Source: Ostreococcus lucimarinus
Lineage: Eukaryota
Direction: 5' to 3' (one strand)
Length of the DNA stretch: 64,000 bases
NCBI GenBank assembly: GCA_000092065.1
Contig: CP000584.1
Positions 29,389-62,403 of this stretch are shown here, piece by piece; position 1 is the first letter of the stretch; every line of letters begins with the position of its first letter. The position numbers and the translations under genes were made by a program. A model generated the notes under the pieces. The model searched no databases, was not told where the DNA came from, and saw only the letters and a program-made list of their open reading frames with translations.

Positions 29389-29947
29389 ATGCGGGTGCAC
29401 ATCAAGCCCAGGCTGCAGCAGGAGAAGTGGAGCCTGTACTGGAAGACGTCGATGTCCACGAGAACGTTCGCGCTCGACGAATTCGACTTGGAGGTGAAGC
29501 ACGACGAGACGACGGCGAAGGAGGTGAGGACGCGCGAAAACTTTGAAATGCGGCATTCGATGACGTTTCACGCGCGCAGGTGAAGGCGAGAGTGGCGGAG
29601 TTCATCGGGCTCCCGCCCGTGGAGACGTTGCATCGATTGGAAGAGTTCGTCGAGCCTTGGGAGTTGATGTGCGCGCGAGACGACGCGACGGCGACGGCGA
29701 AGACGCGACTCCGTCGATAGTCTCGCGAAACGTGACTGACTGCGTCGTGAATTGACCTGTGTTTCCGATTTAAAACAGTATGTATAACGGCCGCGAGCTC
29801 GATGACGGCAAAACGCTCGCCGCGTGCGGCGTTCCGGCCGAAGACGGCGTGAGCGTCGTCGTCGTACGCAAGCAGCTCGTCGCCGAAGGTTGGAAGCTAC
29901 GATTTGAAGATAACGAAGACTCGGACACGGAAGACGACGATTTTTAA
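29389..29947 (+). CDS. Elongin-B-like ubiquitin-like protein, 3 exons: 29389..29523, 29580..29668, 29779..29947 (model tentative for exon 2/3 junction)
   Basis: exon 3 'IMYNGRELDDGKTLAACGVPAEDGVSVVVVRKQL...DSDTEDDDF*' vs human ELOB '[21 protein letters not shown]'; exon 1-2 '...LEVKHDETTAKEVKARVAEFIGLPPVETLHRL' is the Ubl beta-grasp/helix; unspliced ORF ends at 29583; introns GTGAGG...CAG (56 nt) and GTGCGCGCGAGACG...GTGACTGACTG...AAAACAG (110 nt). Confidence 0.5.
29524..29579 (+). other. spliceosomal intron 1 of Elongin-B-like gene (56 nt, GTGAGG...CGCGCAG)
   Basis: restores Ubl reading frame; phase 0. Confidence 0.45.
29669..29778 (+). other. spliceosomal intron 2 of Elongin-B-like gene (110 nt, GTGCGCG donor, GTGACTGACTG branch motif, AAAACAG acceptor)
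   Basis: joins '...EPWEL' + 'I' (split codon at+t) + 'MYNGRELDDGKTL'; motif set shared with other introns in window. Confidence 0.5.
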
Positions 29948-30002
29948 GCCATCGTAACGACGCGCGCGGATGTAACGTAACGTGATCATGAGAAGCGTGC
30001 GA

Positions 30003-31022
30003 TTACATTGCGGGTTCCTCCGCGTCTTGCGTCTCGGGCGCCGATTTCGTGAACTCGGCCTCGAACGCCATGACTTGTGATTCCGCCGCTTGCACGGCTT
30101 CGCGGTCCATGAGCGCCAAGAATTCGTCCAACTTCCCGATCGCGCTCTTGCTCGCCTTGCTCGAAAACTTGGCGTACTCGGCGGCTTTGCCGCCTCCGAC
30201 GGCGCCCATGTTCTCGAAATACTTCGAGTAGTTGACCTTTTCCATGTACTCCAAGAAATCGAACGCGATCTCGCGCGCCTTTTGCTCTTTACTCCCGCTC
30301 AAGTACGCCGCGGCTTTGAATAGATTATCCTTCACGTTGTTCGGCGGTCCCACGACGCGACTCACCGTCGAGTTCAACTCGTCCCACGCGCCGTCCTCCG
30401 CCAACGTCGCCGCCCTGCGCAGCAACTCCCGACTCCGCACCACGGGCACCAAATAAAAGAACAACGGTTTCACCGGCTCCGGGCTCTCGATCGAGATCTG
30501 ACTCAGCCCCACGAACGCCGCCGTCAGCGCCGCGCCGACGATCGCTCGTCGCCGCACCGTCTTCTCCTCCTCCTCCGTCATCCCAGCCTCACCGACCCCA
30601 CCCGCCTCGCTCGGCTGTTCGCGCACCAAGAACTCCATTCCATCTTTCAACCACGCGTCGCCCTCGCTCCTCGTTCCGAACAGCGTCTCTCGCTTTCCGA
30701 CGCCGTCCACGCGCGCCTTGCCCGTCGTCCCGCGCGGCGTCTCGCGCGCCAGCTCGTCCACCGTCTTCACCGTCGCCGCGCCGCCGCTCTTCGCCTCCAG
30801 CGCCGCGCGCAGGCGCTCGCGATCCTCCTCCGCGCGTTTCAGCCGCTCGACGACGTCCGCGAGCGACGCCTCGCTCAGCGGCGCGTCGTCGCCGTCGTCG
30901 TCGCGCGACGTCGACGCGCGTCGCGATCGCCGCGCGTCGCCTCGTCGCGCGCGTCGCCTCGTCGCCGCGCGGACGCGCGACGACGCGCCGCGCGTCGTCG
31001 TCGTCGTCGCGCGCGCGCGCAT
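30003..31022 (-). CDS. PsbQ-like (OEE3 fold) protein with twin-arginine lumen-type signal; N-terminal extent uncertain (ATG candidates 31229, 31022, 30638, 30581)
   Basis: 'VRRRAIVGAALTAAFVGLSQ' RR + hydrophobic; C-terminal about 150 aa helical 'ELLRRAATLAEDGAWDELNS...NLFKAAAYLSGSKEQKAREIAFDFLEYMEKVNYSKYFENMGAVGGGKAAEYAKFSSKASKSAIGKLDEFLALM' with PsbQ-like register; overlaps TrmB ORF on other strand at its 5' end. Confidence 0.45.
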   Translation of the reverse strand: MRARATTTTTRGASSRVRAATRRRARRGDARRSRRASTSRDDDGDDAPLSEASLADVVERLKRAEEDRERLRAALEAKSGGAATVKTVDELARETPRGTTGKARVDGVGKRETLFGTRSEGDAWLKDGMEFLVREQPSEAGGVGEAGMTEEEEKTVRRRAIVGAALTAAFVGLSQISIESPEPVKPLFFYLVPVVRSRELLRRAATLAEDGAWDELNSTVSRVVGPPNNVKDNLFKAAAYLSGSKEQKAREIAFDFLEYMEKVNYSKYFENMGAVGGGKAAEYAKFSSKASKSAIGKLDEFLALMDREAVQAAESQVMAFEAEFTKSAPETQDAEEPAM

Positions 31023-32241
31023 GGCGTCGCGTCGCGTCGCGTCGCGGCGTCGCGCGTCGCCGTCTCGCGCGTCGTCACTTCGCGCGTCGATGCGACGCGC
31101 GGCGTCGACGCTTCGCTTCGCGGCGCGACGCGAGGCCTCGAGCGCGAGCGCGCGAAGGGTCGTCTCGGGATCGGCGTCGCGCGCGCGCGTCGGGACGGCG
31201 CGTCGCGCGCGCGCGCGCGCGGCGAGCATGCGCGCGCGCGTCGACGGCGGCGGCGGCGGCGAACGCGTCGCGGACGCGCGCGGCGAGGAGACGCGCGGCG
31301 AGGGCGCGAGCGCGAGCGAGGGCGGTAAAAAGCAAAAGCGCGACCCGGCGGCGTCGCTGGGCGTGACGGGGATGCGGAACTTTACGCTGAAGCACGGCGC
31401 GCTGCTCATGACGGAGGCGAGCGCGTTCGCGGATTTGAACCTGCAGGAGGCGAGTAAAAAGGTGAGAGGGGTGCGCGTGCGTCAGCACGTGAACCCGCTG
31501 ACGAAGAGGTTTCAAACGCAGGCGCCGGCGCCGGCGTGGAGGGAGGTGTATAGGGACGCGGGGAAGCCGTTGACGATCGACGTGGGGTGCGCGGGCGGGC
31601 GGTTCGATTTGTTGTACGCGAAGCGGAATCCGGATAAGAACGTGCTGGGGTTGGACATCCGCGAACCGCTCGTCGAACGAGGGTTATCGTGGGGAGAGGC
31701 GTCGGGGGTGGTGGATAACGTGCACTTCGCGACGTGTAACGCGACGGTGTCCATCGGGGAGTGGATCAAGAGTTATCACGAGACGAGCGGCGCGACGGTG
31801 GACTTGGTGACCATTTTACACCCGGATCCGCACTTTAAGACGAAGCACAAGAAGCGTCGAATCGTGCAGGCGACGATGGTTCGGCAGCTGGCGAGGGAGA
31901 TGCGCCCCGGTGCGCGCGTGTACTTGCAATCGGATGTGGAAGAGCTCACCGAGGACATGCGCGAGAAATTCGAGCGCTTTTCCGACGGGTGCTTCGATTT
32001 GGACCATGAGTTGTACGACGTCGACGACGTTCGCGCGAAGGCGACAGCGGCGGCCAACGAACCAGTGGATGATAACGACTCTGACGACGACGATGGGTGG
32101 CGATCGACGTGGGTGCACGGCGGATGGCTGAGCGAGAATCCAATCGGCATTCCTTCAGAACGCGAGGTGCAGACGCTCGGCGAAGGGCTTCCCGTGTACC
32201 GAGTCATGCTCCGTCGCACCGAGAAAGCCTGTGCAAACTAA
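31021..32241 (+). CDS. TRMB: tRNA (guanine-N7)-methyltransferase, TrmB-type, with S/R-rich organellar presequence (alternative ATG 31228)
   Basis: 'VRQHVNPLTKRFQ...LTIDVGCAGGRFDLLYAKRNPDKNVLGLDIREPLV...VDLVTILHPDPHFKTKHKKRRIVQATMVRQLAREMRPGARVYLQSDVEELTEDM' = TrmB core; 'MASRRVASRRRASPSRASSLRAS' leader. Confidence 0.78.
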   Translation: MASRRVASRRRASPSRASSLRASMRRAASTLRFAARREASSASARRVVSGSASRARVGTARRARARAASMRARVDGGGGGERVADARGEETRGEGASASEGGKKQKRDPAASLGVTGMRNFTLKHGALLMTEASAFADLNLQEASKKVRGVRVRQHVNPLTKRFQTQAPAPAWREVYRDAGKPLTIDVGCAGGRFDLLYAKRNPDKNVLGLDIREPLVERGLSWGEASGVVDNVHFATCNATVSIGEWIKSYHETSGATVDLVTILHPDPHFKTKHKKRRIVQATMVRQLAREMRPGARVYLQSDVEELTEDMREKFERFSDGCFDLDHELYDVDDVRAKATAAANEPVDDNDSDDDDGWRSTWVHGGWLSENPIGIPSEREVQTLGEGLPVYRVMLRRTEKACAN

Positions 32242-32265
32242 TTCGATGTTACAATAATTTCTTTC

Positions 32266-34785: not shown

Positions 34786-35032
34786 CGAACCGTCGCGCGC
34801 AATAAGTCCACGCCGATCCACCGAGCGATGTTGTTATCAGCAAGTGTTTGTCGTTTGCGTAAAGCTCACGCGCGCGTGCGTCCAAGCTTGCATCGCATTG
34901 TGAAGCCACGCGCGGCAGTCAAACTCGGTCAACCGTGTTGACTTTTCGCCGCGACGACAAACTCACGCACACGTGGCAGCAAAATCACGCGCCCCGTGCG
35001 GGGAGGCCGGACGCGAATAAATAGTCAGCGTC

Positions 35033-35741
35033 TTAAAACGAAAGCGTTTGTAACTCGCGGTATAAACCCTGAAGCCGCCGTCGCCGCGCGTCCAACTCCG
35101 GCCGCCCGCTCGTCGTCGTCGCCGCCGCCGCTTCGCACTCCTCATCCGACGCGTCGTCCTCGTCGCATCGCGTTGCGTCGCGCGCACTCACCGACGCGGT
35201 CACACGTTCCTTCTCCACACACGCACCATCAGCTCGTTCACGCTTCAACCGCTCGACGTCTGCCGTCAGTCGCTCGACGTCCCTCGCGCGCGCCTCGCGT
35301 TCGGCGCGCAACGCCTCCCGCAGCGCGTCAACCTCTCCCCGCGTCGTCGTCATCGTCTCCGCGCTCACCAGCGTCGCGTTCCGCTGCACCGCATTCACGA
35401 CGAGTTCCAATAATCGATCCACTCTGGCGTCCATGCGCCGCTCAAACGCCGCGTGATCGAACGTCGTCGTCGTCGACGCGCCGCCGCCGCCGCGCGTCTC
35501 CTCCCTCGCGTCCCCGCCCGCGTCCTCCACCCGCGCCCGCACGCGCTCGACCACGTCCAGCGCCCCTGAAATCATCTCTTGATCTTCCTCTCGCGCGCAC
35601 TTGATGAGCTTGGCGAGCGCGTGCGTGCGCTGATGGCACTTTTCAACCGACATTTCAATCATTCGCAAGCGACGCTCGCGCGCGTCGTCTTCGCGCGCCT
35701 GCGCGTCTCGCGCGGCGCGCGCGCGGTCGTGGAGCTTATCT

Positions 35742-35776
<35 letters not shown>

Positions 35777-35818: not shown

Positions 35819-35840
35819 AGTGTGACGCGTTCGTCGCGCG

Positions 35841-37193
35841 ATGGCGCCGCGCGACGTCCTCATCGCGACGTTCGCGAGCGTCACCGGGTGCGCGGACCTG
35901 CGGTACTGCTCGCGCGGGCTGAAGGTGCGCGCGAGGACGCGCGAGGACGCGCGAGGACGCGCGAGACGCGGATTAAAGATGACGATGGCGACGCGATGGT
36001 TTTCGAATTCAACGACGACGCGACGACGCGCGCGCGACGCGAGAGCGCGAGGACGCGAACGCTGACGAACGCCGCGACGATTCGATTGCAAACAGGCGTG
36101 TAACGACGATTTAGACGCGGCGGTGGACGCGTTCTACAACGGGACGCTGGACGCGCGCGCGGCGTCTCTCGACGACGACGACGACGACGAGATCGATCGA
36201 ACGCGAGCGACGCGCGACGGCGCGAGCGGCGATCGCGTGGGCCGAAGAGGCGAGAACGCGGACGATGCGATGGTGATCAGCGACGGCGAAGGGACCATGG
36301 ATGAGGATTCGGATGATTATTGGGACGACGACGGGTCGTCGCCGATCGATTTGATGGGCGAGGACGAGGACGACCCGAGTGACGCGCGGATCTTTGGAAA
36401 TTCGGCCACGGTGAACGCGCGGATGGGACAAGATGCGTGGGGGGGAGATGCGAGAACTCGGGCGCGGATGGAGACGAGAGATCGACTTGGGTTCGGTGGT
36501 GCGGGGGCGTCGGCGTTCCAGGCTCGCGACGGCGGCGACATCGATTTACCGGACGGCATCGATCGCGAGGAGGCGCGAATGTTAGAGGCGGCCATGTTGG
36601 GTGTGGCGTACATTCCACCAGATAACGCAACGGCGAGTAGAATGGCAGATTACGGGCCGAGCGCGCCGGCGCCGGCGAGTGTTTTGAACGCGCGGTCGAT
36701 CACGACGGAGACGGATCGAGCGTACGAAGAGTCGCTGCGGGCGGATCGAGAGAAAGAGGCGCAACGACGGGCGGAGAAAATCGCGAAGGAAATGATTGAG
36801 GCAGAAAAGGCACAGGCGGAGGCGCGAGAAAAAGCCGAAAGAGAGGCCGAGGAAGCGGCGCGCGCGAAAATCGCCGCCGACGCCGCCGAGGCGCTGCCGG
36901 ACGAACCCAACATCGGGGACGACGACGTGGTGAACATTGCGTTTAGATTACCGGACGGTTCACGCGTGATGCGCCGATTTCTATCATCACACAGCGCACG
37001 AGCGCTGTTTTTGTTTATCGACGGTTACGAGAAGCTCCATGCTGGTAGTTCTCGGCTCGCTGTCGAGCCAGGGACGTACAGACTCGTCGCGCAACATCCT
37101 CGTCGGGTCATAGAAAGCGACGACGCGGGGACTATCGCGGAAGCGGGAATCACGCACAAGCAAGAGGCGCTGATGATTGACTTGCTCGGTTAG
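35841..37193 (+). CDS. UBA/UAS/UBX-domain protein (FAF2/UBXD8- or PUX-like), 2 exons: 35841..35924, 36096..37193
   Basis: exon 1 + 2 give 'MAPRDVLIATFASVTGCADLRYCSRGLK|ACNDDLDAAVDAFYNGTL' = UBA-like (cf FAF2 'LQEFCAITGASEEVARHYLEQTDWDLNAAVQLFFE'); C-terminal UBX 'VVNIAFRLPDGSRVMRRFLSSHSARALFLFIDGY...YRLVAQHPRRVI'; intron GTGCGCGCGAGGAC...CGCTGACGAACG...AAACAG. Confidence 0.72.
35925..36095 (+). other. spliceosomal intron of UBX gene (171 nt; contains (GCGCGAGGAC)x3)
   Basis: donor 'aag|gtgcgcgcgag', branch 'cgctgacg' 26 nt before 'aaacag|'; phase 0. Confidence 0.65.
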
Positions 37194-42992: not shown

Positions 42993-43128
42993 ATGAAACG
43001 ACGATCGAGCGAAGACGCGGCCGACGCGGACGCGAGCGAGACGCCGAGCGCGGGCAAACGCGCGCGCGCGACGACGGCGACGATCGCCGAGAATCCGACG
43101 GGCGACGACGACGTGCGTGGAGACGCGC

Positions 43129-43165
<37 letters not shown>

Positions 43166-43546
43166 ACGGCGCGATGGCCGCCGAACCGCGACGCGCGCGC
43201 GGGACGAACGCGCGACGACGACGACGGTCGGGAACGCGTCGCGTCGGATCGCGCGCGAGCGAAGGCGCGAACGGCGCGTTTAAAGAAGAGACGCGCGCGA
43301 CGGATTCGACGCGCGCGCGGAACGCGGTGACTGACGACGCGCGCGAATGTGAACGTTGATGCATAGAAATCGAACGCGAAGTCGAACCGCAGGAGCTCGC
43401 GGACGTCGAACGCCGAGCCGGAGGCGGCGGCGGAGAAGGCGAACGGGAAACCCGCCGGCAAGGCGAAGACGAAGGCGAACGGAAACGGGAAGGGCGCGAC
43501 GAAAGGAGGTGCGCGCGTCGACGATCGCGCGATTCGCGCGTTTTGA
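42993..43546 (+). CDS. candidate 2-exon small basic protein (42993..43112 + 43367..43546) or spliced 5' leader/uORF of the downstream gene
   Basis: 'MKRRSSEDAADADASETPSAGKRARATTATIAENPTGDDD' then donor 'gac|gtgcgtggagacg', (CGCGA)n, branch 'ggtgactgacgacg', acceptor 'gatgcatag|'; exon 2 'KSNAKSNRRSSRTSNAEPEAAAEKANGKPAGKAKTKANGNGKGATKGG...' stops 3 nt before next gene ATG. Confidence 0.25.
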
Positions 43547-43549
43547 GTG

Positions 43550-44509
43550 ATGATGCGTGACGGGGGACTGACGATAGGACGGTGTTTCGACGCGATCGTA
43601 GACGACGTGACGAGCGTTGACTATCGCGAGGGCGAGTCGCTCGCGGCGCACTTGAAGCTCGACGAGGGCGTGCTCGATGTGTGCATTCCCGCCGAGGCTA
43701 CGTCGACCGCGAATCAGCACTTGCGCACGAGGCAGTTGTGGGGCACGGATGTTTACACGGCGGATTCCGATATCGTCGCCGTGCTCACGCACACTGGATA
43801 TTATCGTCCGAGCGGCGTCATGCCGCCGAATCTCGGCGCGGTGCGCGCCGTCATTCGAGCGACGCCGCACCCGGAAGATGGCTATCCCTCGACGAGTCGT
43901 AACGGTATTCGATCGCGATCGTGGGGACACATCAAAGAAGGGTGCGGATTTGTCGTCGAGAGCGCGCGGGCGGTGACGAGCTCTGGCGTCGAAATCGACT
44001 TGACGCCGAACACGATGCGTCGCAAGGTTTCGCCAACGTTTTTCCCGATTGAGAAGGAGCACGTCGTGCACACGCGTAATTCTGCGGCTAACGCCACGGG
44101 TAAGAAGGGTTTGATTCGTGAAGTGACGATTCAGTACAATTTATGCAACGAACCGTGGATGAAGTACAGCGTCAGCCTCGTCGCAGATCAAGGCTTCAAG
44201 AGATCGCAGTGGACGTGCGCGCGACTTCGCCGGGAAGTCTTGTACGTCGAGACGCATCACAAGAGGTACGAGTTGAGCTGCGTGCCTGGAAAGGATGGTG
44301 AAGAGAGTAGATTCAGATGGGCCGCGAGTAAGAAGCCGCTCCCGCTTGATAAGACGCGCGAAGTGGGAGTGCCGTTGCCGAAGGCGCACGTCGACGTCGC
44401 CGCCGACGATTTGCGCTGGGACGAGATTCATTGGGGATCGAACTCGGTGATCATTCGCGACAAGGAGTACCAGCTCGCGCGCTTACAATACCTTCCGCGC
44501 GGTAAGTGA
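43550..44509 (+). CDS. conserved eukaryotic protein, possibly Rxt3-like histone-deacetylase-complex subunit (name tentative); track start 43547 is GTG
   Basis: 319 aa, strong GC3; 'GTDVYTADSDIVAVLTHTGYYRPSG...GHIKEGCGFVVESARAV...IQYNLCNEPWMKYSVSLVADQGFKRSQWTCARLRREVLYVETHHKRYELSCVP'. Confidence 0.6.
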   Translation: MMRDGGLTIGRCFDAIVDDVTSVDYREGESLAAHLKLDEGVLDVCIPAEATSTANQHLRTRQLWGTDVYTADSDIVAVLTHTGYYRPSGVMPPNLGAVRAVIRATPHPEDGYPSTSRNGIRSRSWGHIKEGCGFVVESARAVTSSGVEIDLTPNTMRRKVSPTFFPIEKEHVVHTRNSAANATGKKGLIREVTIQYNLCNEPWMKYSVSLVADQGFKRSQWTCARLRREVLYVETHHKRYELSCVPGKDGEESRFRWAASKKPLPLDKTREVGVPLPKAHVDVAADDLRWDEIHWGSNSVIIRDKEYQLARLQYLPRGK

Positions 44510-45785: not shown

Positions 45786-47493
45786 ATGCTGAGTCCGACG
45801 CGACGACGCGCGACGGTTGAGTCGACGACGTCGTTCGAGCACTGTCGAGCGGGGACGCCGACGGGACGAGCGCAGGTGCGCGCGCGCGACGGCGAGGCGA
45901 GGCGAGGCGCGCGCGCGCGGAATTCGCGTCGCGAAAACCGTTCGCGTCGCGCGCGGTGATAAGCGCGGTTCGACGCGCGCGCGGGACGCGCGGGACGCGC
46001 GGATGGCGATGGCGATGGCGATCGAGGGGATGGATGATCGTCGAGCGAATCGACGCGCGAGACTGACGATGTTGACGGTTCGATAGGTCGATCGATTCAT
46101 CCCGAGCCGTAGCGCGTTGGATTTGGACGTGGCGCACTACAATTTGTCCCGAGAGGGCGGGGAATCGGAGGTGGATGATGCGGTAAAGGAGATCAAGTCT
46201 CCGGCGAAGGTGCGCGCGTCGACGCGCTCGAAGCGCGCGCGGACGAACGCGTGGAGTGAATGAATGAGTTCGTTGAGACTGACGACGAAATCGATCGCGC
46301 GATGATATGATGCACAGGAAGCGTATAAGAAAAGTCTTGCGGATAACTTCCACGTGGATAACGGAAGCGATTCGGCGAAGATTCTCGCGTTCAAGTCAAA
46401 GGCGCCGGCGCCGCCGAGCGGGTTGGAAAACTCGGCGCGCGGTGTCTACACGAACAACTCCGCGGGAGTGAAGGCGAAGAAGACGTTCCGTCAGATTCCC
46501 AGCGCTCCCGAACGCATCTTAGATGCGCCGGAGTTGATCGATGACTACTATTTGAACCTTATCGACTGGGGGTCGTCGAACCAAGTCGCGGTGGCGTTGG
46601 GGTGCACCGTGTACATGTGGAACGCGGATACTGGGGCTATCAACCAATTGTGCCAGACCAACCCGGATGACGAAGATGATTACATCACCTCCGTCAACTG
46701 GGGTGCGGACGGTAAGCACATTGCGGTGGGTACGAACAGTGCGGAGGTTCAAATTTGGGACGCGGCGCAGTGCAAGAAGGTGCGTACGTTGCGAGGTCAC
46801 GCCGCGCGGGTGGGTGCGGTCTCGTGGAACGGTTCGCAGCTTGCAACGGGTAGTCGTGATAACAACATCATGATTCACGACGTTCGCATTCGCGAGCATT
46901 GCACCTCGACGCTCCAGGTTCACCAGCAAGAGGTTTGTGGCTTGAAGTGGAGCCCGAGTGGCAATCAGCTCGCGTCTGGCGGTAACGACAACTTGTTGCA
47001 CATCTTTGATGCGAGCTCCATCGGCAATCAACAAGCGTTGCACAGATTAGATGCGCATCAAGCTGCCGTTAAGGCTCTCGCCTGGTGTCCGTTCCAGTCC
47101 AACTTGCTCGCTTCGGGCGGCGGTACCGCCGACCGTTGCATCAAGTTTTGGAACACGAACACCGGCGCCATGCTCAACTCTGTGGACACGCACTCGCAAG
47201 TGTGCTCGTTGCAGTGGAACACGCATGAGCGGGAGCTTTTGTCGTCGCACGGTTACAGCCAAAACCAGTTGTGTTTGTGGAAGTATCCGACGATGACCAA
47301 GATGGCCGAGTTGACGGGTCACCAAGCGCGAGTGCTTCACATGGCGCAGTCTCCGGACGGTACCACGGTGGTATCGGCGGCCGCGGATGAGACTTTGCGA
47401 TTCTGGAAGTGCTTCGATAACGCTAGCGAGAAGACCAAGAAGGTGCGCGATTCCAATGACTCATCTGTTTTGCGCAGGTTCAATTTCCGCTAA
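45786..47493 (+). CDS. CDC20: APC/C activator CDC20/Fizzy (C-box + WD40), 3 exons: 45786..45875, 46087..46209, 46318..47493
   Basis: exon 2 '[25 protein letters not shown]...[10 protein letters not shown]' (C-box DRFIPxR) + exon 3 '[11 protein letters not shown]...[32 protein letters not shown]...' parallels plant CDC20 '[21 protein letters not shown]...SSPSREAYRKQLAE'; in-frame stops at 46084, 46261, 46303 removed by introns; WD40 'IAVGT..VQIWD', C-terminal IR-like tail; track start 46354 is GTG. Confidence 0.8.
45876..46086 (+). other. CDC20 intron 1 (211 nt; GTGCGCGCG donor, GAGACTGACG branch 18 nt before GATAG acceptor; contains (GGCGAG)3 and (GATGGC)3 microsatellites)
   Basis: phase 0; links [30 protein letters not shown] to C-box exon. 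Confidence 0.6.
46210..46317 (+). other. CDC20 intron 2 (108 nt; GTGCGCGCG donor, GAGACTGACG branch, CACAG acceptor)
   Basis: junction 'SPAK|EAYKK' matches plant 'SPSR-EAYRK'. Confidence 0.75.
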
Positions 47494-47966: not shown

Positions 47967-49884
47967 ATGCTCGTGGGCGCGAATAATTTCCGTGCGTGAT
48001 CGCGCGCGCGCGTTTCGCGATCACTCGTCGCGCTCGACCGCGCGCGCGTCGCGCGCGACCGCGACGGATCGACATTTGATTTTGAATGCGCTCGACGCGA
48101 GACTGACGCACCGCGCGCGCGAACGCGCGACTCGAACGACAGATTTCGCGTATAGCACGATCCGCGATGAAGGCGCGAACTGCCCCGTGCTCGTGTACGT
48201 GTCCACGGCGGACGTGGACGCGCTGTGCGCGTTTAGAACGCTGAAGCTGATGCTTCGGAGCGACAACGTGGCGTATTCGGTGTTCCCGGTGAGTGGATAC
48301 GGCGAGTTGCAGCGGCTCGGGGAGGAAATCCCGGACGATGGGCAACAGCGAGCGATCGTGTTGATAAACTGTGGGGGCACGGAGGATGTGAAGACGGTGA
48401 TGGGGTTGCGCGAGGGCGCGAGAGCGTACGTGTTCGATTCGCACAGGCCGTTGGATTTGGAGAACACGAGGGCGGATAATCAGGATGTGTTGGTGATGCG
48501 GGACGATAAGGAAGGAGAAGAGTCGTTTCCAGAGCCGGACTCGGAGGATGACAGCGACAGCGACGATGATGATGACGAAGATGACGACGCGGGGGCAAAA
48601 GGTGGAGAGTCGCCGAGGACGAGACGGTTGCGAAAGGCGGAAAAGCAGCGCGAAAGGGCGGCGTATTACGCGCGCGGGTCGTTCTACGGACGATCGAGTG
48701 GGATGGTGATGTATGACATAGCGTACAGAATGAGCAAGGATAGGTTGGAAAATTATTTACCGCTTTGGTTGGCGGTGTTGTCGATGACGGATCAGTACTT
48801 GCATCAAAGGTTGTCGCACGAGATGTACACTTCGTGCGTCATGGAGCTCGCAACTCGCGTGAGCGCGATGTCGAACGCCGATATGCCGACGACGCGGTCT
48901 TTAGAAGATGGCACTATCGTCAAGGCGTTCGACGAACGGCGTTTGCAGTACAATGAGGAGTTTAGATTTATGCTTTTACGCCACTGGACGCTGTACGAGT
49001 CAATGCTGCATAGCAATTACGTTGCGACGCAGTTGCAAACGTGGACGGAGCGTGGCCGAGCGAACTTGAACTCCCTCTTCGCGCATGTGGGGATCCCTTT
49101 GGACGTGGCGAAGCAAAAGTATTCGCACATGTCTCCGGCGCAAGTGAAACAATTTGAGGAAAGGTTGGATGAGTACGGCGCGTCGCACGGATTGGATAAC
49201 GTCAAGTTTTGGTCGTTTCAGTATTCCCATGGCTATGCACTGAGAGTGTGTGCTGCGGATGTCGTGTACGGCGCGACAGCGTTGCTCGAAGGCATGCTTG
49301 ACAGAGAAGAGGAGGATAGAACACCCGCGGATAACTTTTGGCGAGCATCGCAGGCGCTGTCGTTGGGCAATTGGGACGAGATGGAGGCGGGCATCAGCCA
49401 CGCCATCCGATTGCAACAAGCTGTTATGCGACAAGGTGGGATCGCGCTCGCTTCTTCCGCGCACATTCGCACGACTGGGAGTTTGCGATGCTTTTCTTTG
49501 CTCGATCATGGATCGCCGGCGGATGTCAAATTGTTCATGCACCCGCTGTCGTTGTTGAAGCTCGCGTTGTTCGTGCAAGACGCACTTCGCGTGACAAAGA
49601 AACGGCTTCGGCCACTTGTCTGCATTGGTCCATCTGCGGAAGATGAATCCCTCGCGCTCATCGTCGGTGTCACCGCCAAGCCAAACACCGACGACGCCGC
49701 TGGCGGAAACTTCTTCACGCACTCGTTCAAAATGGCCGCTGAACGTATTCACGCGCGTTTCCGACACGACTCTTTCGAAGCCTCCGTGATACAAGTCGCT
49801 CGACGTGACTTGGGACCATTCATCGAGGCGCTATCTGACATTGACGCCGAGCGTCTGGCGCGTTTGCGAATGGCCGCCGCATAG
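47967..49884 (+). CDS. CDC45: DNA replication initiation factor CDC45, 2 exons: 47967..47991, 48143..49884
   Basis: spliced N-term 'MLVGANNF|H|FAYSTIRDEGANCPVLVYVSTADVDALCAFRTLKLMLRSDNVAYSVFPVSGYGEL' vs human '[58 protein letters not shown]'; no in-frame ATG between TTG track start (47599) and conserved block; acidic loop 'DSEDDSDSDDDDDEDDD'; DHH-like and C-terminal CDC45 homology to end. Confidence 0.8.
47992..48142 (+). other. CDC45 intron (151 nt; GTGCGTG donor, GAGACTGACG branch 34 nt before ACAG acceptor)
   Basis: phase 1 (c|at = His); same motif set as CDC20/UBC7 introns. Confidence 0.6.
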
Positions 49885-51432: not shown

Positions 51433-51462
51433 AAATTTCGTCTGTAAAACTGATCTACTCAC

Positions 51463-53166
51463 TCAGCTAGCGCTAGTGGATGCTTCCTCCGCCTGGTCAT
51501 CCTCGGTTGCTAATGAATCCCCCTGTGCGTCGCCGTCCAAGGCGTCGAAGATGGCGTCGACGTCCATCGACGCGAACGCGGCTTTGATGTCGTCGCGAGC
51601 GACGCCGTCGATGGCAGCCTTCATCGATTCGCGAAGCTCGTCGCGGGACGGCTCTCCGTTGAAGTTCTCTTCGACGTAAAGCTTGCGCGGCCAATCCGCG
51701 AGCACTGCCACAATCTGGTCTTGAACGTTGTACGTCTTGAGCTCGAAGCCGCGCGTGTTGTCGTGAATATCCGTACGCAGTTGCTTTCTCGTGGTGTGCT
51801 CAAACGACGGGATGCTGTCCAGCATGCGAGTCGCGCTCGCGACATCGCGATTAAGTAGATGCGCTCGGACCACGTGAACGTAATAAAAAGGCGTAATCGG
51901 CATCACGTCGGGCTCTCGCCACTTTGCTGGAATTTCGAGCTTCTCGGCGCCCCTGTGCGTGTGCGTGCCCGCCTCGATGGCGGCGTTGATGCGCTCCATT
52001 CGCTCAATACGGGATTGAAGCGTTGCTCGAATACTCGCGATATGCTCTTCGTTCGCCCACAACGCGTGCTCGGGCTCGCCAATCCTCGTGGCCCATTTCA
52101 AAAACTTGAAATACGTTCTGCTCGGAACGACGGCGCCGCTCTCTTTAAACGCGACGGCGTACTCTCGAGCGAGATCCATGTGCCTGTTATCGAGCGAGGC
52201 CCCGATCATCGTAGCCACGGTGAAGTCTTCCGTGCCGTAACTTTCGCGCACCGCTTCGTACACGCGATAGACGTACTCAAAAGGTCCAGTGTACGTGTTG
52301 AAAAATGCCTGCTTGGCCACCGTCCGCGTCAACTTTACGCCCAGCGACGCGTGGTTTTCAACCATCTCCACCGCGGCTTCGTGATCGTCAAATTTGCGAA
52401 TTTCATTGAACAATTCCAACGCCACCTGTTCGCGCCAAACCATGTGCCCTCCCCACTGCGAACGGTTCGCCGCTTCCTCGGGCGTGTCCGTCGCGACGGG
52501 TTCGTACTTTGCCAACCGAATGCGGTGCATCTTCGCCATGAAAGCAAAAACCTCGCGAATATCCTCCTTGGTCTTAATCTTGGTGATCATGATGCGAACT
52601 TGTCTCGAGGACGTGGGGTAATCTCCGTCCGCCACGCTATCGGTGGCGATCTTAATCGCCTCGCTCACCGTCTCCGCGCACGCCAACGTCACGTCGAGTC
52701 TTCTCTTCACCAACGTCGACCGCAACAACGGCGGATCGTGCGGCACCTCGTCCGGAATATCGATCAACTTATGCGCGGTCTCGTGCTTGTTCGTTTTCGA
52801 GTCTCCGTCGACGTTCCCATCACCGTCCTCGCCGTCGTCGTCGCGTTCGCCTTCCCGTTCGCTCCCCGTCGCCGTCGCGAACGCGCGTCGTCCCGCCGTC
52901 GTCCACGTCGCGAACGTCCCTCTTCCCGCGCGCAGCGCCTCCCCCGCGCGTTCCGCGCGTCGACCCGTCCCTCGCTCGTCCGTTCGCGTCGCCCGCGCCT
53001 CGCGCGCGCCTCCGCGCGCCGTCGCCGTCGTCGTCGTCGCGAACCCTCCGTCGTCGCCCGTCGTCGTCGTCGCCTCGCGCGTCGTCCCCGCGCGCCCTCG
53101 CGCGCGCTCGCACAGCGCGCGCACCGAGCCGATGACGTCCTTGGCCGTCGACGCGCGTCGCAGCAT
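51463..53166 (-). CDS. helical-repeat protein (PPR/TPR-like), probably organellar, unknown function
   Basis: ATG 53166 verified; R/T/A-rich leader 'MLRRASTAKDVIGSVRALCERARGRAGTTREATTTT'; body '...FNEIRKFDDHEAAVEMVENHASLGVKLTRTVAKQAFFNTYTGPFEYVYRVYEAVRESYG...' ; acidic C-terminus; only about 30 bp from Beclin ATG. Confidence 0.5.
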   Translation of the reverse strand: MLRRASTAKDVIGSVRALCERARGRAGTTREATTTTGDDGGFATTTTATARGGAREARATRTDERGTGRRAERAGEALRAGRGTFATWTTAGRRAFATATGSEREGERDDDGEDGDGNVDGDSKTNKHETAHKLIDIPDEVPHDPPLLRSTLVKRRLDVTLACAETVSEAIKIATDSVADGDYPTSSRQVRIMITKIKTKEDIREVFAFMAKMHRIRLAKYEPVATDTPEEAANRSQWGGHMVWREQVALELFNEIRKFDDHEAAVEMVENHASLGVKLTRTVAKQAFFNTYTGPFEYVYRVYEAVRESYGTEDFTVATMIGASLDNRHMDLAREYAVAFKESGAVVPSRTYFKFLKWATRIGEPEHALWANEEHIASIRATLQSRIERMERINAAIEAGTHTHRGAEKLEIPAKWREPDVMPITPFYYVHVVRAHLLNRDVASATRMLDSIPSFEHTTRKQLRTDIHDNTRGFELKTYNVQDQIVAVLADWPRKLYVEENFNGEPSRDELRESMKAAIDGVARDDIKAAFASMDVDAIFDALDGDAQGDSLATEDDQAEEASTSAS

Positions 53167-53591
53167 CCTCGCCGTCGACGCGCGCGATCACGCGCGGCAG
53201 AGTGCGCCGTCGATCGCGAGCGATCGCGCCGCAGGGCGGCGAGAAACCCATAACTTCGACGGCGACGGCGGCGACGCGCGATGGTGGCCGAAACCTCGAC
53301 GTAACTGTTTGCCAGGGTGAGCTTCGCTGGCGCGGAGTGCGGCCTTCAAAGCCGTAGCGGCTTAGCGGCCGAGTCGTTCGATTCGACCTCACTGGCGACG
53401 CGATTTTTGCCGACGCCGACGCCGACGACGGCGACGCGCGACGACGGCGCGCGCGCGCGCGGCCGACGCGTTCTTCGACGTCGCGCGCGCGAGCGTTTTT
53501 TGTTTTTTCACGGTGATAAATCGAATGTAGACTACATACATCTCGTATTCGAGCCACCTCGAATCCTATACATTCCCTATATGCGCGCCCA

Positions 53592-58524: not shown

Positions 58525-58575
58525 TAAAGTTGTAAAATCACATCTCGACTACTACAAGCTCTTCTTTCGATGGCA

Positions 58576-59493: not shown

Positions 59494-59569
59494 CGCGCGC
59501 GTCGTCGCGATCGCGCGTCGCTCTGGCGTCTCGGCGTCGTCACTCTGGCGCGTCTCGATCGTCGACGCG

Positions 59570-59990
59570 ATGAGCGGCAAGGCGCTCGCGAGCGACAGCG
59601 AAGACGACGACGTCGCCGTCCCGGCGAAGCGCGTCAACGACGTCGACGCCGCCGACGCGCCGCCGGCGAAGAAGGTGCGCCGCGCGCGACGCCGCGACGC
59701 GCGAACGACGGACCGACTGACGCTTTTTAAATCAGACGGCGACGAAACCGACGACGAGCGACGCGCGCGAGGGCAAGAAGCCCGCGCGCGAGGACGACGA
59801 CGACGACGACGATAGCGACGCGGATTCGGTCGACAGCGAGTGCGTGGACGATCTGTCGGGGGACGAGGTGGACGCGTCGAACATCATAGAGGGCGGTCGA
59901 CGCGCCAGGCGCGGACGACCGACGACGTTCACGGCGGAGATGTACGCCAAGGCGGGGCCGGCGTTCGGCAGCGATTCGGACGATGAGTGA
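59570..59990 (+). CDS. small acidic protein (about 119 aa), 2 exons: 59570..59674, 59736..59990; unknown function
   Basis: 'MSGKALASDSEDDDVAVPAKRVNDVDAADAPPAKK|TATKPTTSDAREGKKPAREDDDDDDDSDADSVDSECVDDLSGDEVDASNIIEGGRRARRGRPTTFTAEMYAKAGPAFGSDSDDE*'; intron 59675..59735 with GTGCGCC donor, CCGACTGACGC branch, TTTTTAAATCAG acceptor; divergent from CPI1 by 77 bp. Confidence 0.5.
59675..59735 (+). other. 61-nt spliceosomal intron of the small acidic gene
   Basis: aag|GTGCGCCGCGCG...GACCGACTGACGCTTTTTAAATCAG|acg; phase 0; joins two frames both GC3-biased. Confidence 0.6.
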
Positions 59991-60055
59991 GCGCGCGCGA
60001 GGTGAAACGCTAGCGATGTGATCGAACGAACGAACGAAACGGTAAACGACACACC

Positions 60056-60454
60056 ATGGCGCGCGGAGACGGCGCCGCCGCGGCGCTGTTTCGCCGCATC
60101 ATCCGCGCCGCGCGCGCGCTCGATCGCGTCGAGGCGAGGGACGCCGTCGTCGAAGCGCGCGCGGCGTTTCGAGCGCGCGCCGACGTCAGCGGCGCCGCGC
60201 TCGAGGACGCGCTCGAACGGGGCGAGCAAAGACTAGCGCTGGCTTCACATTATGGCATCGCGTACGAACGCATAGCGCACGCGAAACTCGCGGGAGGCGG
60301 GAATAAAGACGTCGAGGTGCCGTCGACGAAGGCGTTTAACACCGCCGTCGCGCGAGCGCAGTTCCCGGTGAACCCGGCGAACGCGGCGGCGCGGGCGAAG
60401 GCGCGGGCGAGACGAGGGGCGGTGGCGAACGCCGAGCGACGGACGAACGAATGA
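60056..60454 (+). CDS. LYR-motif (Complex1_LYR) family mitochondrial protein
   Basis: 'MARGDGAAAALFRRIIRAARALDRVEARDAVVEARAAFRARADVSGAALEDALERGEQRLALASHYGIAY' = L-x-x-L-[YF]-R + downstream F/R helix pattern of LYRM/SDHAF1/ISD11 family; ATG verified. Confidence 0.58.
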   Translation: MARGDGAAAALFRRIIRAARALDRVEARDAVVEARAAFRARADVSGAALEDALERGEQRLALASHYGIAYERIAHAKLAGGGNKDVEVPSTKAFNTAVARAQFPVNPANAAARAKARARRGAVANAERRTNE

Positions 60455-60509
60455 ATCGAGCGTGGGAATCTATCTATGCCTATGATCTAGCCCTAGCAAC
60501 CTAGCTGTT

Positions 60510-61676
60510 TTACTGCGATGACCATAGCGATCGCGTGCCGTAGTTTTTCGTCTCTCGGTACGCGGGCGCGGTGTAGAGAAATTGCAACACCGGTCGATTG
60601 GCGAGCGAGTCGTTCGCCATGCCGCGGTGGAGTAAGCGGTAGTCGTACGCCACGCTTTGACCCGCGTCGAGAATTCCATCGAAGGAGAGTCGTAAGATCA
60701 AGCTCGCGTCGCCAAAACCGATGAGTTTACTCGTCTTGTGACTGCGCATGAAGAACTGCGTAAAACCGGTTTCGCGCGATAAATCGATCAACGGCATGAA
60801 GACGCAGACGCCGTACGGCGGTGCGTGACCGCATCCCGTGCGGACGTCGCACTCGACGTCGAGATGTCGACCGTCTGCGTGCCACTCTTGATTTTTCGCG
60901 CCGGGTCTGGAATACACCACCGACACGTGCACGTTCCAACCGTTCGGCATGAGCGCGTCGACGAGCGCGCGCCACGGCGCGTCGTCGCGCGCGAGCGCGC
61001 GAAGCGTCGCCCACTCCTCGAGTTCTAAATCTACTAGAGCATCGAATCGCTCGCCTCCACGCGAACCAATCTCTCGAAACGCGAATCGATCGCGCCCGTA
61101 CACTATATCCCCGAACGATTCCTCGAACCTCCGCTCGACGCGTTCCACGAATCGCTCCGTCGCCTCGCGAATTTCCCGCGTCGTCTCTTCGTCCACCGCT
61201 TTCAAGCACGTCGCCACGCCCGCGTCTGCGAACGCCGCCACGCGCTCTTCATCCGTCCTGTCCTTCCGTCCCCAATCGAGCGTCTCTTTCGTCACCGCAT
61301 CGATCGATCCCAGCGGCACGTATCCCGGCGCCGTCATCGTCGTCGTCGCCTCGGCGTCCCAACCGCGCGTCGCCATCCACGCCCGCACCCGCCGTTCCAG
61401 CCGCGCGTCCTCGCTCGAGCACGCGCGACACCGCCACGCGATCGTGACGTCCATCGCGCGCGCGTCGTCGTCGTCGTCGGCGCTCGCGCGCGCGCGCTCG
61501 AGCTCGACGACGCGCGCGTCGCGTTTCGCCGTCCATCGCAGCGCGGCGAGGTGCGCGGCGAGCGCGTCGTCGTCGCGCGCGCGCGTCGTCACGCGCAGGA
61601 CGTGCGTGGAGAGCGCGCGATCGTCGTCGTACAGCGCCTCGTCGCTCGCCTCGTCGTCGTCGTCGTCGTCAGTCAT
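60510..61676 (-). CDS. phytanoyl-CoA dioxygenase (PhyH) family 2-oxoglutarate/Fe(II) oxygenase; track start 61712 is GTG
   Basis: 'NQEWHADGRHL' (HxD), '...PYGVCVFMPLIDLSRETGFTQFFMRSH...' second His, 'RPVLQFLY'; N-terminal poly-Asp 'MTDDDDDDEASDE'; ATG 61676 verified. Confidence 0.78.
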   Translation of the reverse strand: MTDDDDDDEASDEALYDDDRALSTHVLRVTTRARDDDALAAHLAALRWTAKRDARVVELERARASADDDDDARAMDVTIAWRCRACSSEDARLERRVRAWMATRGWDAEATTTMTAPGYVPLGSIDAVTKETLDWGRKDRTDEERVAAFADAGVATCLKAVDEETTREIREATERFVERVERRFEESFGDIVYGRDRFAFREIGSRGGERFDALVDLELEEWATLRALARDDAPWRALVDALMPNGWNVHVSVVYSRPGAKNQEWHADGRHLDVECDVRTGCGHAPPYGVCVFMPLIDLSRETGFTQFFMRSHKTSKLIGFGDASLILRLSFDGILDAGQSVAYDYRLLHRGMANDSLANRPVLQFLYTAPAYRETKNYGTRSLWSSQ

Positions 61677-61738
61677 GACGATGACTCGAGACGCGACGCC
61701 GAGTGGCGGCACTGCGCGCCGCGCGCACGGAAGGAACG

Positions 61739-62403
61739 ATGAGCGATCAGGCGGTGTTGCTGCTCCGGAAGCAGCTCAAAGGTGCGACGCGCGCGACGCG
61801 ACGCGCGCGACGCGGATTCGGGCGCGACGCGCGACGCGACGACGGCGCGAGCGATGGGATTTCGACCGATCGCTGGCGGCGGTGTCGCGCGTCTGTTTCG
61901 GCGCGCACGCGCGGGAGACTGACGCGAACGCGTCGCGAACGCGAGCAGAGCTTTCGAGAAACCCGATCGAGGGGTTCTCCGCGGGTTTGGTGGATGATTG
62001 CAACGTGTTCGAGTGGCAAGTCACGGTCATGGGACCGCCCGAGACGCTGTACGAGGGCGGGTTCTTTACGTGTAACATGTCGTTTCCGAAAGATTATCCG
62101 AATAAGCCGCCGACGGTGAAGTTCGTGAGCGAGATGTGGCATCCGAACGTGTACGCCGATGGACGGGTGTGCATATCGATCTTACACTCGCCTGGGAATG
62201 ATCCCAACGGGTACGAGGACGCGAGCGAGCGATGGAGTCCGGTGCAGACGGTGGAGACGATTATGTTGAGCGTGATTTCTATGCTTTCCGATCCGAACGA
62301 TGAGAGCCCGGCGAACGTAGACGCGGCCAAGGAGTGGCGTGATGATTATCCGGCGTTCAAGAAGCGTGTGGCGCGATGTGTGCGAAGGAGTCAAGAGGAG
62401 TAA
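61739..62403 (+). CDS. UBC7: ubiquitin-conjugating enzyme E2, UBC7/UBE2G2-type (acidic loop insertion), 2 exons: 61739..61781, 61949..62403
   Basis: 'MSDQAVLLLRKQLK|E|LSRNPIEGFSAGLVDDCNVFEWQVTVMGPPETLYEGGFFTCNMSFPKDYPNKPPTVKFVSEMWHPNVYADGRVCISILHSPGNDPNGYEDASERWSPVQTVETIMLSVISMLSDPNDESPANVDAAKEWRDDYPAFKKRVARCVRRSQEE' near-colinear with yeast Ubc7/human UBE2G2; exons lie in two different frames joined by GTGCGACG...GGGAGACTGACGCG...GCGAGCAG intron. Confidence 0.85.
61782..61948 (+). other. UBC7 intron (167 nt; phase 1)
   Basis: aaa g|GTGCGACGCGCG...GGGAGACTGACGCGAACGCG...GAGCAG|ag ctt; reconstitutes 'KQLKELSRNP'. Confidence 0.78.

What the first reader, a model, noticed from the sequence alone, without database searches (positions are those of the whole stretch)
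29389..62403. Uniform, unusually rigid intron grammar (GTGCGNG donor, RCTGACG branch, YAG acceptor), possibly an introner-like family
Every intron I could reconstruct shares the same signals. These are CDC20 (45876-46086 and 46210-46317), CDC45 (47992-48142), UBC7 (61782-61948), UBX (35925-36095), Elongin-B-like intron 2 (29669-29778), the small acidic gene (59675-59735) and the candidate at 43113-43366. Each starts GTGCG[C/A/T]G, usually GTGCGCGCG. Each carries (GA)GACTGACG, or the close variants GTGACTGAC, CGCTGACG or CCGACTGACG, about 18 to 35 nt upstream of a CAG/TAG acceptor. Several also share GCGAACG / CGCGAGAC blocks and internal microsatellites. The 10-mer GAGACTGACG is identical in four introns. 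This points either to an extended, yeast-like strict branch-point consensus in this lineage, or to descent from a common introner-type element of the kind that proliferated in Micromonas.
Basis: seen in the sequence. Interest (0 to 1): 0.6.

Follow-up and report, generated by a model that had tools for sequence, protein, structure and literature searches.

The report
Known strict Ostreococcus intron splice signals
The shared GTGCG start and GACTGACG branch motif are real, but they are the already published standard splicing signals of ordinary introns in the tiny marine alga Ostreococcus lucimarinus, not copies of a mobile "introner" element.

Summary
The window is Ostreococcus lucimarinus CCE9901 nuclear DNA. 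Six are confirmed to the base by spliced transcript assemblies, one by gap-free alignment of homologues, and one by comparative and reading-frame logic only. I found three more introns: 5081-5173, 29524-29579 and 43509-43601. The total is 11 introns in 8 genes. Ten start GTGCG, against a 4% chance expectation. Nine carry ACTGAC, and eight the full GACTGACG, with the branch A 15-39 nt from the YAG acceptor. ACTGAC is about 99-fold enriched in introns. One intron (29524-29579; GTGAGG donor, ATGACG branch-like motif) breaks the grammar, so "every intron" is slightly overstated.

This grammar is already published. Irimia & Roy 2008 report GTGCGTG and GACTGACG, 87% ACTGAC and a 20-35 nt BP-AG distance for O. 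lucimarinus introns outside chromosome 2. Verhelst 2013 gives the same signals for canonical Mamiellophyceae introns.

The introner alternative fails. Intron interiors share only (CG)n/(GACGCG)n low complexity, and 0 of 55 pairs reach 80% identity over 80% of length. There are no TSDs or TIRs. Five introns are orthologous in a sister lineage, with invariant signals and fast-diverging interiors.

Verdict: already known, low interest.

The parts
5081..5173 (+). 93 nt, donor GTGCGTC, branch GAAGACTGACG at 5142, acceptor CGCAG. It is in frame with no stop codon.
   Evidence: Splicing gives a 151-aa protein. Sedlin_N aligns in one stretch (profile 1-127 of 129) and mouse sedlin 1h3q aligns across the junction. 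In related strains the segment changes frame and length while both flanks stay conserved. No spliced transcript was found, and GenBank has only a partial 109-aa model.
29524..29579 (+). Intron 1 of the ubiquitin-like ('Elongin-B-like') gene. 56 nt. It is an exception to the grammar: donor GTGAGG, branch-like ATGACG at 29560, acceptor CGCAG.
   Evidence: Read-through hits a stop at the 3' junction. The GenBank model P0124 splices it, and full-length homologues align without a gap across the junction. It is absent in a more distant Ostreococcus, L033.
29669..29778 (+). Intron 2 of the ubiquitin-like gene. 110 nt, donor GTGCGCGCG, branch GTGACTGACTG at 29736, acceptor AACAG.
   Evidence: Frame continuity. 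The Pfam ubiquitin domain (residues 31-106) spans both junctions. Homologues P0123, P0125 and P0126 are collinear across it. The same position with a GTGCGCG donor is found in L033. The GenBank model reads into it, so it is unannotated.
35925..36095 (+). Intron of the UBA-UBX gene. 171 nt, donor GTGCGCGCG, branch GAACGCTGACG at 36062, acceptor AACAG.
   Evidence: Spliced transcript contigs L031 and L032 join 35924 to 36096. The UBA_4 domain spans the junction. The intron has an in-frame stop.
43113..43366 (+). 254 nt, donor GTGCGTG, branch GGTGACTGACG at 43331, acceptor CATAG.
   Evidence: Four transcript contigs (L015-L018) join 43112 to 43367. It is orthologous in sister lineage L027-L030 with conserved signals and a 65%-identical interior.
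43509..43601 (+). Intron 2 of the Rxt3-domain gene (new). 93 nt, donor GTGCGCGCG, branch GGGGACTGACG at 43568, acceptor CGTAG.
   Evidence: The same four transcript contigs join 43508 to 43602. The 3-exon 389-aa protein exists as an exact sequence only on transcript assemblies.
45876..46086 (+). CDC20 intron 1. 211 nt, donor GTGCGCGCG, branch CGAGACTGACG at 46063, acceptor GATAG.
   Evidence: Six transcript contigs (L019-L024) confirm it. The spliced protein equals XP_001417356.1. It is orthologous in L027-L030.
46210..46317 (+). CDC20 intron 2. 108 nt, donor GTGCGCGCG, branch TGAGACTGACG at 46279, acceptor CACAG.
   Evidence: Same transcripts and annotation as CDC20 intron 1. Orthologous in L027-L030.
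47992..48142 (+). CDC45 intron after an 8-codon first exon. 151 nt, donor GTGCGTG, branch CGAGACTGACG at 48103, acceptor GACAG.
   Evidence: Transcript contig L019 joins 47991 to 48143. The spliced protein equals XP_001417357.1. Orthologous in L027-L030.
59675..59735 (+). Intron of a small acidic CHZ-domain gene. 61 nt, donor GTGCGCC, branch CCGACTGACG at 59717, acceptor ATCAG.
   Evidence: The exons are in different frames and are joined only by removing the 61 nt. A CHZ motif lies in exon 2. Relative P0148 conserves both exon peptides with a different, longer segment starting AKK|VR at the same position. No spliced transcript was found.
61782..61948 (+). UBC7/UBE2G-type E2 gene intron. 167 nt, donor GTGCGAC, branch GGAGACTGACG at 61919, acceptor AGCAG.
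   Evidence: Transcript contigs L025 and L026 join 61781 to 61949. The spliced protein equals XP_001417359.1.

Best explanation
These are ordinary, independent U2-type spliceosomal introns of Ostreococcus lucimarinus. They belong to the 'canonical' intron class found on all chromosomes of Mamiellophyceae except the low-GC part of chromosome 2. In this intron-poor lineage the splicing signals have evolved to a strong consensus: exon AG|GTGCG(Y) at the donor, (G)ACTGAC(G) at the branch site roughly 15-40 nt upstream of the acceptor, and a YAG (often CGCAG) acceptor without a polypyrimidine tract.

Shown here:
- The introns are excised at exactly these junctions.
- The signals are held constant by selection while the interiors drift rapidly.
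- The interiors are unrelated to each other apart from CG-rich low-complexity runs.

Inferred from established spliceosome biology: the ACUGAC core pairs with the U2 snRNA GUAGUA box with the A bulged out. The strictness reflects a spliceosome that needs strong sites in an intron-poor genome, as proposed by Irimia & Roy 2008.
For: - The organism is identified by exact protein matches to XP_001417603.1, XP_001417356.1, XP_001417357.1 and XP_001417359.1.
- Seven introns are excised in transcript assemblies at the predicted bases. These are the only gaps in the roughly 13.7 kb covered by transcripts, so this sub-census is unbiased: 7 of 7 have GTGCG and 7 of 7 have CTGACG.
- Signal statistics: GTGCG 10 of 11 (p about 2e-13), ACTGAC 9 of 11 (p about 6e-24), ACTGAC 99-fold enriched in introns.
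- In the sister lineage L027-L030 all five introns sit at the same positions, with donor and GACTGACG invariant. Interiors are 65-87% identical counting gaps (CDC45 intron 95%), against exons 91-100% identical.
- In the more distant L033, intron 2 of the ubiquitin-like gene is at the same position with a GTGCGCG donor.
- Published genome-wide data match: of 319 EST-confirmed introns outside chromosome 2, 87.2% have ACTGAC and 66.5% GACTGACG. The donor consensus is GTGCGTG at 4.8 bits, the BP-AG peak is 20-35 nt, and CGCAG is the preferred acceptor (PMC2483917).
- Canonical Mamiellophyceae introns have AG|GTGCGT plus NCTGAC (PMC3879977).
Against: - One of the 11 introns (29524-29579) uses GTGAGG and has no CTGAC, and UBX has GCTGACG where the others have ACTGACG. 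In L033 the orthologous branch-like motif is TTGACG. The grammar is therefore a strong preference, not a rule.
- Three junctions lack direct transcript evidence: 5081-5173, 59675-59735 and the pair in the ubiquitin-like gene.
- Branch points are inferred from motif and position. They have not been mapped.
Confidence: 0.95

Rival explanations
1. The introns are recent copies of an introner-type mobile element, as in Micromonas pusilla CCMP1545 or the short IE-C/ABC-IE family of M. commoda RCC299. On this view their shared motifs come from common descent.
For: - The short RCC299 IE-C family carries the same GACTGACG branch motif (PMC3879977).
- Intron-to-intron BLAST HSPs are over-represented: 14% of non-self HSPs against a 2.3% share of the sequence.
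- The mean interior pair score is slightly above dinucleotide shuffles: 11.9 against 10.8 +/- 0.34.
Against: - The similarity is confined to (CG)n/(GACGCG)n runs, and the best pair score of 24.5 is within the shuffle range of 22.6 +/- 2.6.
- Each intron's best hit is to a non-intron low-complexity tract.
- 0 of 55 pairs reach 80% identity over 80% of length, which is the published clustering criterion; the best coverage is 37%.
- There is no TSD beyond AG and no TIR.
- Lengths range from 56 to 254 nt.
- Five introns are orthologous in a sister lineage and one in a more distant lineage.
- Introner elements were reported as seemingly absent from the other published mamiellophycean genomes.
Confidence: 0.02
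2. All canonical Mamiellophyceae introns descend from an ancient introner burst in the common ancestor. The interiors have since decayed, leaving only the selected signals.
For: The signals are uniform across genera. A living introner family in Micromonas uses the same extended branch motif. The interiors evolve very fast, so ancient homology would be erased.
Against: No positive evidence was found. The same pattern of strong signals in intron-poor genomes has arisen convergently in yeasts, Trichomonas, Giardia and others without introners (PMC2483917). Signal uniformity is maintained by selection in present lineages, which is sufficient on its own.
Confidence: 0.03
3. The motif triplet is a chance or ascertainment artefact of a CG-rich genome, in which GTGCG and CTGACG are common words.
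For: GTGCG (326 against 389 expected) and CTGACG (37 against 57 expected) are not enriched in the window as a whole. A loose composite pattern is found less often than in shuffles: 31 against 54.
Against: The motifs are concentrated precisely at transcript-verified junctions. ACTGAC is 99-fold enriched in introns. The chance probabilities are 1e-13 to 1e-24.
Confidence: 0

Closest known systems
Canonical (regular) spliceosomal introns of Ostreococcus lucimarinus and other Mamiellophyceae outside the low-GC chromosome-2 region (Irimia & Roy 2008, PMC2483917; Verhelst et al. 2013, PMC3879977)
   Same: The donor GTGCG(T/C), the extended branch motif GACTGACG, the BP-AG distance of about 20-35 nt, the CGCAG/YAG acceptor, a few introns per gene, no similarity between introns, and positions shared between relatives. 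The window's proportions (10 of 11 GTGCG, 9 of 11 ACTGAC, 8 of 11 GACTGACG) match the published 87% and 66.5%.
   Different: Nothing substantive. The window adds individual introns that are missing or wrong in the GenBank models: 5081-5173, 29669-29778, and the 3-exon Rxt3 model.
Micromonas introner elements (IE-A/D-IE1, D-IE2 in CCMP1545; IE-C/ABC-IE in RCC299)
   Same: They are functional spliceosomal introns on the sense strand in a sister genus. IE-C carries the identical GACTGACG branch motif.
   Different: Introners show high within-family identity along their whole length, occur in hundreds to thousands of copies, sit at lineage-specific positions and show presence/absence polymorphism. 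The introns here share only their signals, differ in length (56-254 nt) and are orthologous between lineages.
Hemiascomycete yeast introns (GTATGT donor, TACTAAC branch site)
   Same: An intron-poor genome with near-invariant extended donor and branch-site consensus, a strong 5' position bias of introns in genes, and a U1 snRNA with the standard pairing region despite a +4 mismatch (preprint 10.1101/2022.06.08.495308).
   Different: The consensus words differ (GTGCGY and GACTGACG), the context is GC-rich, and the origin is independent (convergent).
BOC1 introns of the low-GC half of chromosome 2 in Ostreococcus/Micromonas
   Same: Same genome and presumably the same spliceosome.
   Different: BOC1 introns are short (40-75 nt), AT-rich, dense, and have weak GTRNGT donors and no discernible branch motif. 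The introns here have 55-75% GC and strong signals.

Membership tests
Canonical Mamiellophyceae spliceosomal introns | GT-AG boundaries, and excision from mRNA at those boundaries | tested here: met
   Seven of 11 introns are absent from transcript assemblies exactly at GT...AG. The other four have GT...AG and restore reading frames or domains.
Canonical Mamiellophyceae spliceosomal introns | Donor consensus (AG)|GTGCG(T/C) | tested here: met
   10 of 11 start GTGCG and 8 of 11 are preceded by AG. The exception is 29524 (GTGAGG).
Canonical Mamiellophyceae spliceosomal introns | Branch motif NCTGAC / extended GACTGACG, about 20-35 nt from the acceptor in O. lucimarinus | tested here: met
   CTGAC in 10 of 11, ACTGAC in 9 of 11, GACTGACG in 8 of 11. 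The branch A is 15-39 nt from the 3' end. The branch nucleotide itself was not mapped.
Canonical Mamiellophyceae spliceosomal introns | Singletons: no significant similarity to other introns | tested here: met
   Tested within the window only. The whole genome was not available.
Canonical Mamiellophyceae spliceosomal introns | Positions often conserved between related lineages | tested here: met
   5 of 5 are conserved in the sister lineage L027-L030. In L033, intron 2 of the ubiquitin-like gene is conserved and intron 1 is absent.
Introner elements (Micromonas-type or DNA-transposon type) | High sequence identity along the element among many copies (clustering at 80% identity or more over 80% or more of length) | tested here: not met
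   0 of 55 pairs. The best local match covers 37% of the length and consists of CG-rich low complexity (criterion).
Introner elements (Micromonas-type or DNA-transposon type) | Lineage-specific insertion sites / presence-absence polymorphism | tested here: not met
   The grammar-conforming introns are present at identical positions in all population and sister-lineage contigs examined. Only the non-conforming intron 29524-29579 is absent in L033.
Introner elements (Micromonas-type or DNA-transposon type) | Terminal inverted repeats and target-site duplications (transposon-type introners) | tested here: not met
   There is no exon/intron-end duplication longer than the 2-nt AG (4 nt in the non-conforming intron). 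Terminal 15-mers match at 2-7 of 15 positions.
Introner elements (Micromonas-type or DNA-transposon type) | Match to the published IE consensus motifs (D-IE1, D-IE2, ABC-IE/IE-C) | not tested
   The consensus sequences are only in figures and supplements that were not retrieved. Only the shared GACTGACG is documented in text.
BOC1 (chromosome-2 low-GC) introns | Short (under 75 nt), AT-rich (under 43% GC), no branch motif, in a low-GC region | tested here: not met
   Intron GC is 55-75%, lengths are 56-254 nt, and the branch motif is strong.

The most novel reading that the evidence does not exclude
The most novel reading not excluded is that the uniform signals are the residue of an ancient introner burst in the ancestor of Mamiellophyceae, with the Micromonas IE-C family (same GACTGACG) as a surviving relative. 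A related possibility is that positions not explained by standard snRNA pairing are read by a co-evolved trans factor (SF1/BBP, U2, U6 or a U1 protein). Those positions are +4 C in the donor and the G flanking ACUGAC on each side. U1 itself has been reported as unchanged.
Probability: 0.05. Interest if true: 0.55.

Novelty: already known. Interest (0 to 1): 0.1.

Why it matters
It matters little as a discovery. The consensus (GTGCGTG, GACTGACG, BP-AG 20-35 nt) was published for this very genome in 2008 and extended to the whole class in 2013.

The practical value is that the grammar works well as a gene-finding prior. In this one window it recovers exons that the GenBank models miss or truncate: exon 1 of the Sedlin-like gene, exon 3 of the ubiquitin-like gene, and the 3-exon Rxt3 model.

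The open biological question is why an intron-poor alga demands a donor that mismatches its standard U1 at +4, and an extended branch motif. This window does not make that question more tractable.

Tried and rejected
- A codon-usage sliding-window coding map was too noisy in this GC-rich sequence to define gene models. It was reused only as a ranking score.
- I tried to obtain the GenBank exon structure through the look-up of encoding contigs. Only prokaryote-style gene calls on metagenome contigs came back. They were useful for Pfam labels and population variants, but not for introns.
- One concatenated protein query (UBX, ubiquitin-like, CHZ and Sedlin N-termini) was swamped by acidic low-complexity words and returned 3 uninformative hits.
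- Exact look-ups of my spliced Sedlin, ubiquitin-like and CHZ models, and of a longer CHZ start, found nothing.
- These extra motif hits were examined and rejected as introns:
  - + 1180 (GAGACTGACG antisense to a minus-strand coding region);
  - - 61673 (ATG ACT GAC start codon region of the PhyH-like gene);
  - - 16245 (in-frame CFTDDS in a membrane protein);
  - - 23500-23816, + 20497-20590, - 10771-10949, - 16587-16939 and + 18709-18913, all inside continuous ORFs of recognisable proteins.
- U12-type introns were considered and dismissed, because there is no ATATCC/GTATCC donor.
- I did not search for the Ostreococcus U2 snRNA in metagenomes. An exact pattern would hit all eukaryotes and the hits could not be assigned to a species with these tools.


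Full report
**Source.** The window (61.7% GC) is nuclear DNA of Ostreococcus lucimarinus CCE9901. The ORF at 51463-53166(-) is exactly XP_001417603.1. Three of my spliced gene models are exactly XP_001417356.1 (CDC20), XP_001417357.1 (CDC45) and XP_001417359.1 (UBC7-type E2). The same sequences are common in marine metagenome assemblies.

**Observation.** As plain words the motifs are not special in this CG-rich sequence. GTGCG occurs 326 times on both strands against 389 +/- 17 in dinucleotide shuffles. CTGACG occurs 37 times against 57 +/- 7. A loose composite pattern is rarer than in shuffles. The signal lies in where the words occur.

**Are the junctions real?** Conceptual splicing restores open frames with recognisable motifs. 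These include the CDC20 C-box DRFIPSR just after intron 1, the E2 N-terminus LLLRKQLK^ELSRNP, and the CDC45 N-terminus after an 8-codon first exon.

- Contigs from public run assemblies carry the coding sequences of Rxt3, CDC20, CDC45, UBC7 and UBX uninterrupted, so they are spliced transcripts.
- Aligned to the window, they place the junctions at 35924|36096, 43112|43367, 43508|43602, 45875|46087, 46209|46318, 47991|48143 and 61781|61949.
- These seven are the only gaps in about 13.7 kb of transcript-covered sequence. That sequence also spans the intronless minus-strand DUF3531, PhyH-like and MFS genes. Within it, 7 of 7 introns have GTGCG and CTGACG without any selection by motif.
- For the ubiquitin-like ('Elongin-B-like') gene, full-length homologues from related lineages align without a gap across both junctions, and the Pfam ubiquitin domain spans both.
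- The CHZ-domain acidic gene intron (59675-59735) has no transcript support. It rests on the frame change between two exon peptides that are both conserved in a relative, where the intervening segment differs.
- A new 93-nt intron at 5081-5173 in a Sedlin-like gene is supported by uninterrupted Sedlin_N and PDB 1h3q alignments across the junction. In related strains the segment also shifts frame and length between conserved flanks.

**Census.** I listed every CTGAC site on both strands and ran a symmetric scan with relaxed signals ranked by coding continuity. No further introns emerged. Non-3n indels against sister-lineage contigs also cluster in the known introns and spacers.

- The window holds 11 introns in 8 genes.
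- Ten start GTGCG. With P(GTGCG|GT) = 0.042, that gives p about 2e-13.
- Ten have CTGAC, nine ACTGAC and eight GACTGACG, with the branch A 15-39 nt from the 3' end (p about 1e-18 to 6e-24).
- ACTGAC is about 99-fold enriched in introns.
- All acceptors are YAG, three of them CGCAG, and no polypyrimidine tract precedes them.
- The exception is intron 1 of the ubiquitin-like gene (29524-29579). It has a GTGAGG donor and an ATGACG branch-like motif.
- UBC7 and CHZ fit GTGCG but not GTGCG[C/A/T]G.

**What it is.** This is the published grammar of canonical Ostreococcus introns.

- Irimia & Roy (2008, PMC2483917) analysed 319 EST-confirmed O. lucimarinus introns outside chromosome 2. They reported 87.2% with ACTGAC, 66.5% with GACTGACG and an 'atypical consensus GTGCGTG' at 4.8 bits. 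They also found a BP-AG peak of about 20-35 bp and a CGCAG acceptor preference.
- Verhelst et al. (2013, PMC3879977) describe AG|GTGCGT plus NCTGAC as the signals of the canonical introns present in all Mamiellophyceae.
- A 2022 preprint (10.1101/2022.06.08.495308) reports that U1 snRNA candidates in five Mamiellales keep the standard pairing region, so no compensatory U1 change is known.

**Introner test.** With donor and branch regions stripped, interior pair scores reach at most 24.5 against 22.6 +/- 2.6 in shuffles, and the mean is 11.9 against 10.8 +/- 0.34. The alignments are (CG)n/(GACGCG)n runs.

- Each intron's best BLAST hits are to low-complexity tracts in exons and spacers, not to other introns. 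Intron-intron HSPs are nonetheless over-represented, because introns are rich in this composition.
- None of the 55 pairs meets the published clustering criterion of 80% identity over 80% of length.
- There is no TSD beyond AG and no TIR.
- Syntenic contigs from a sister lineage (about 93% identical overall) carry all five compared introns at the same positions. Donors and GACTGACG are invariant there. Interiors are 65-87% identical counting gaps (CDC45 intron 95%), while exons are 91-100% identical.
- In a more distant Ostreococcus (L033), intron 2 of the ubiquitin-like gene is at the same position with a GTGCGCG donor and CGCAG acceptor, but a TTGACG branch-like motif. Intron 1 is absent there.
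- These are old, independent introns whose signals are under purifying selection. They are not recent copies of one element.

**Mechanism.** Excision at these sites and selective maintenance of the signals are shown. The rest is inferred from general spliceosome knowledge. ACUGAC would pair with the U2 GUAGUA box with the A bulged out. The extended positions, and the +4 C that mismatches standard U1, would be read by other components. The strictness would reflect the intron-poor state, as argued by Irimia & Roy.

**Verdict.** The introner interpretation is rejected.

Noticed in passing
window 53311-53397 (+): A selenocysteine tRNA gene (tRNA-Sec, anticodon TCA). It scores 72.9 bits against Rfam RF01852 and ARAGORN also calls it.
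   Followed up: no
window 4985-5533, 29389-29949, 42993-44509: The GenBank gene models look incomplete here. The Sedlin-like protein XP_001417338.1 is a 109-aa partial without exon 1. The annotated ubiquitin-like protein (P0124, 91 aa) reads into intron 2 and so misses the last exon. My 3-exon Rxt3 protein is found only on transcript assemblies, not under an NCBI accession.
   Followed up: partly
whole window: All 8 intron-containing genes (11 introns) are on the + strand, although genes are split roughly evenly between strands. No minus-strand intron was found by symmetric scans, and three minus-strand genes are shown by transcripts to be intronless. This may be chance: about 0.5^8, assessed post hoc.
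   Followed up: partly
all 11 introns: Every intron lies near the 5' end of its gene. The donor is 25-516 nt downstream of the ATG, and first exons are as short as 8-14 codons. This is typical of intron-poor genomes.
   Followed up: no
whole window, both strands: Outside introns the branch-like words are depleted relative to dinucleotide shuffles: CTGAC 62 against 109 +/- 11, CTRAY 153 against 256 +/- 17, GTGCG 326 against 389 +/- 17. This could reflect codon usage or selection against cryptic splice signals.
   Followed up: no
window 29524-29579; L033 7001-7540: The one intron that breaks the grammar (GTGAGG donor, ATGACG) is absent in a more distant Ostreococcus lineage, where the coding sequence is continuous (…TAKEIKAAV…). 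It is therefore a lineage-specific gain or loss.
   Followed up: partly
window 4985-5533 and 26937-28184: NCBI holds proteins labelled '[bacterium]' (MDA9599195.1, MDA9627171.1) that are identical to ORFs of this Ostreococcus nuclear sequence. One is the unspliced 182-aa read-through of the Sedlin-like gene. They look like eukaryotic contigs mis-binned into bacterial MAGs.
   Followed up: no
introns versus coding sequence: Intron sense strands are purine-rich and T-poor (G 38.6%, A 19.6%, C 28.5%, T 13.3%; CpG observed/expected 2.2). Coding sense strands show the same direction of skew more weakly (G 32.7%, T 19.4%), so this is an accentuated transcribed-strand bias and not an intron-specific feature.
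   Followed up: partly
window 1-4000: The first 4 kb have clearly lower GC (52-53%) than the rest of the window (about 62%). The region appears to be coding on the minus strand.
   Followed up: no
L033 about 13560-13805: The end of this related contig carries at least two and a half tandem copies of a roughly 105-nt unit (…GGTAAAACGGACCATCGACCGATCGATCGACGTCGTGGTTCAT…).
   Followed up: no
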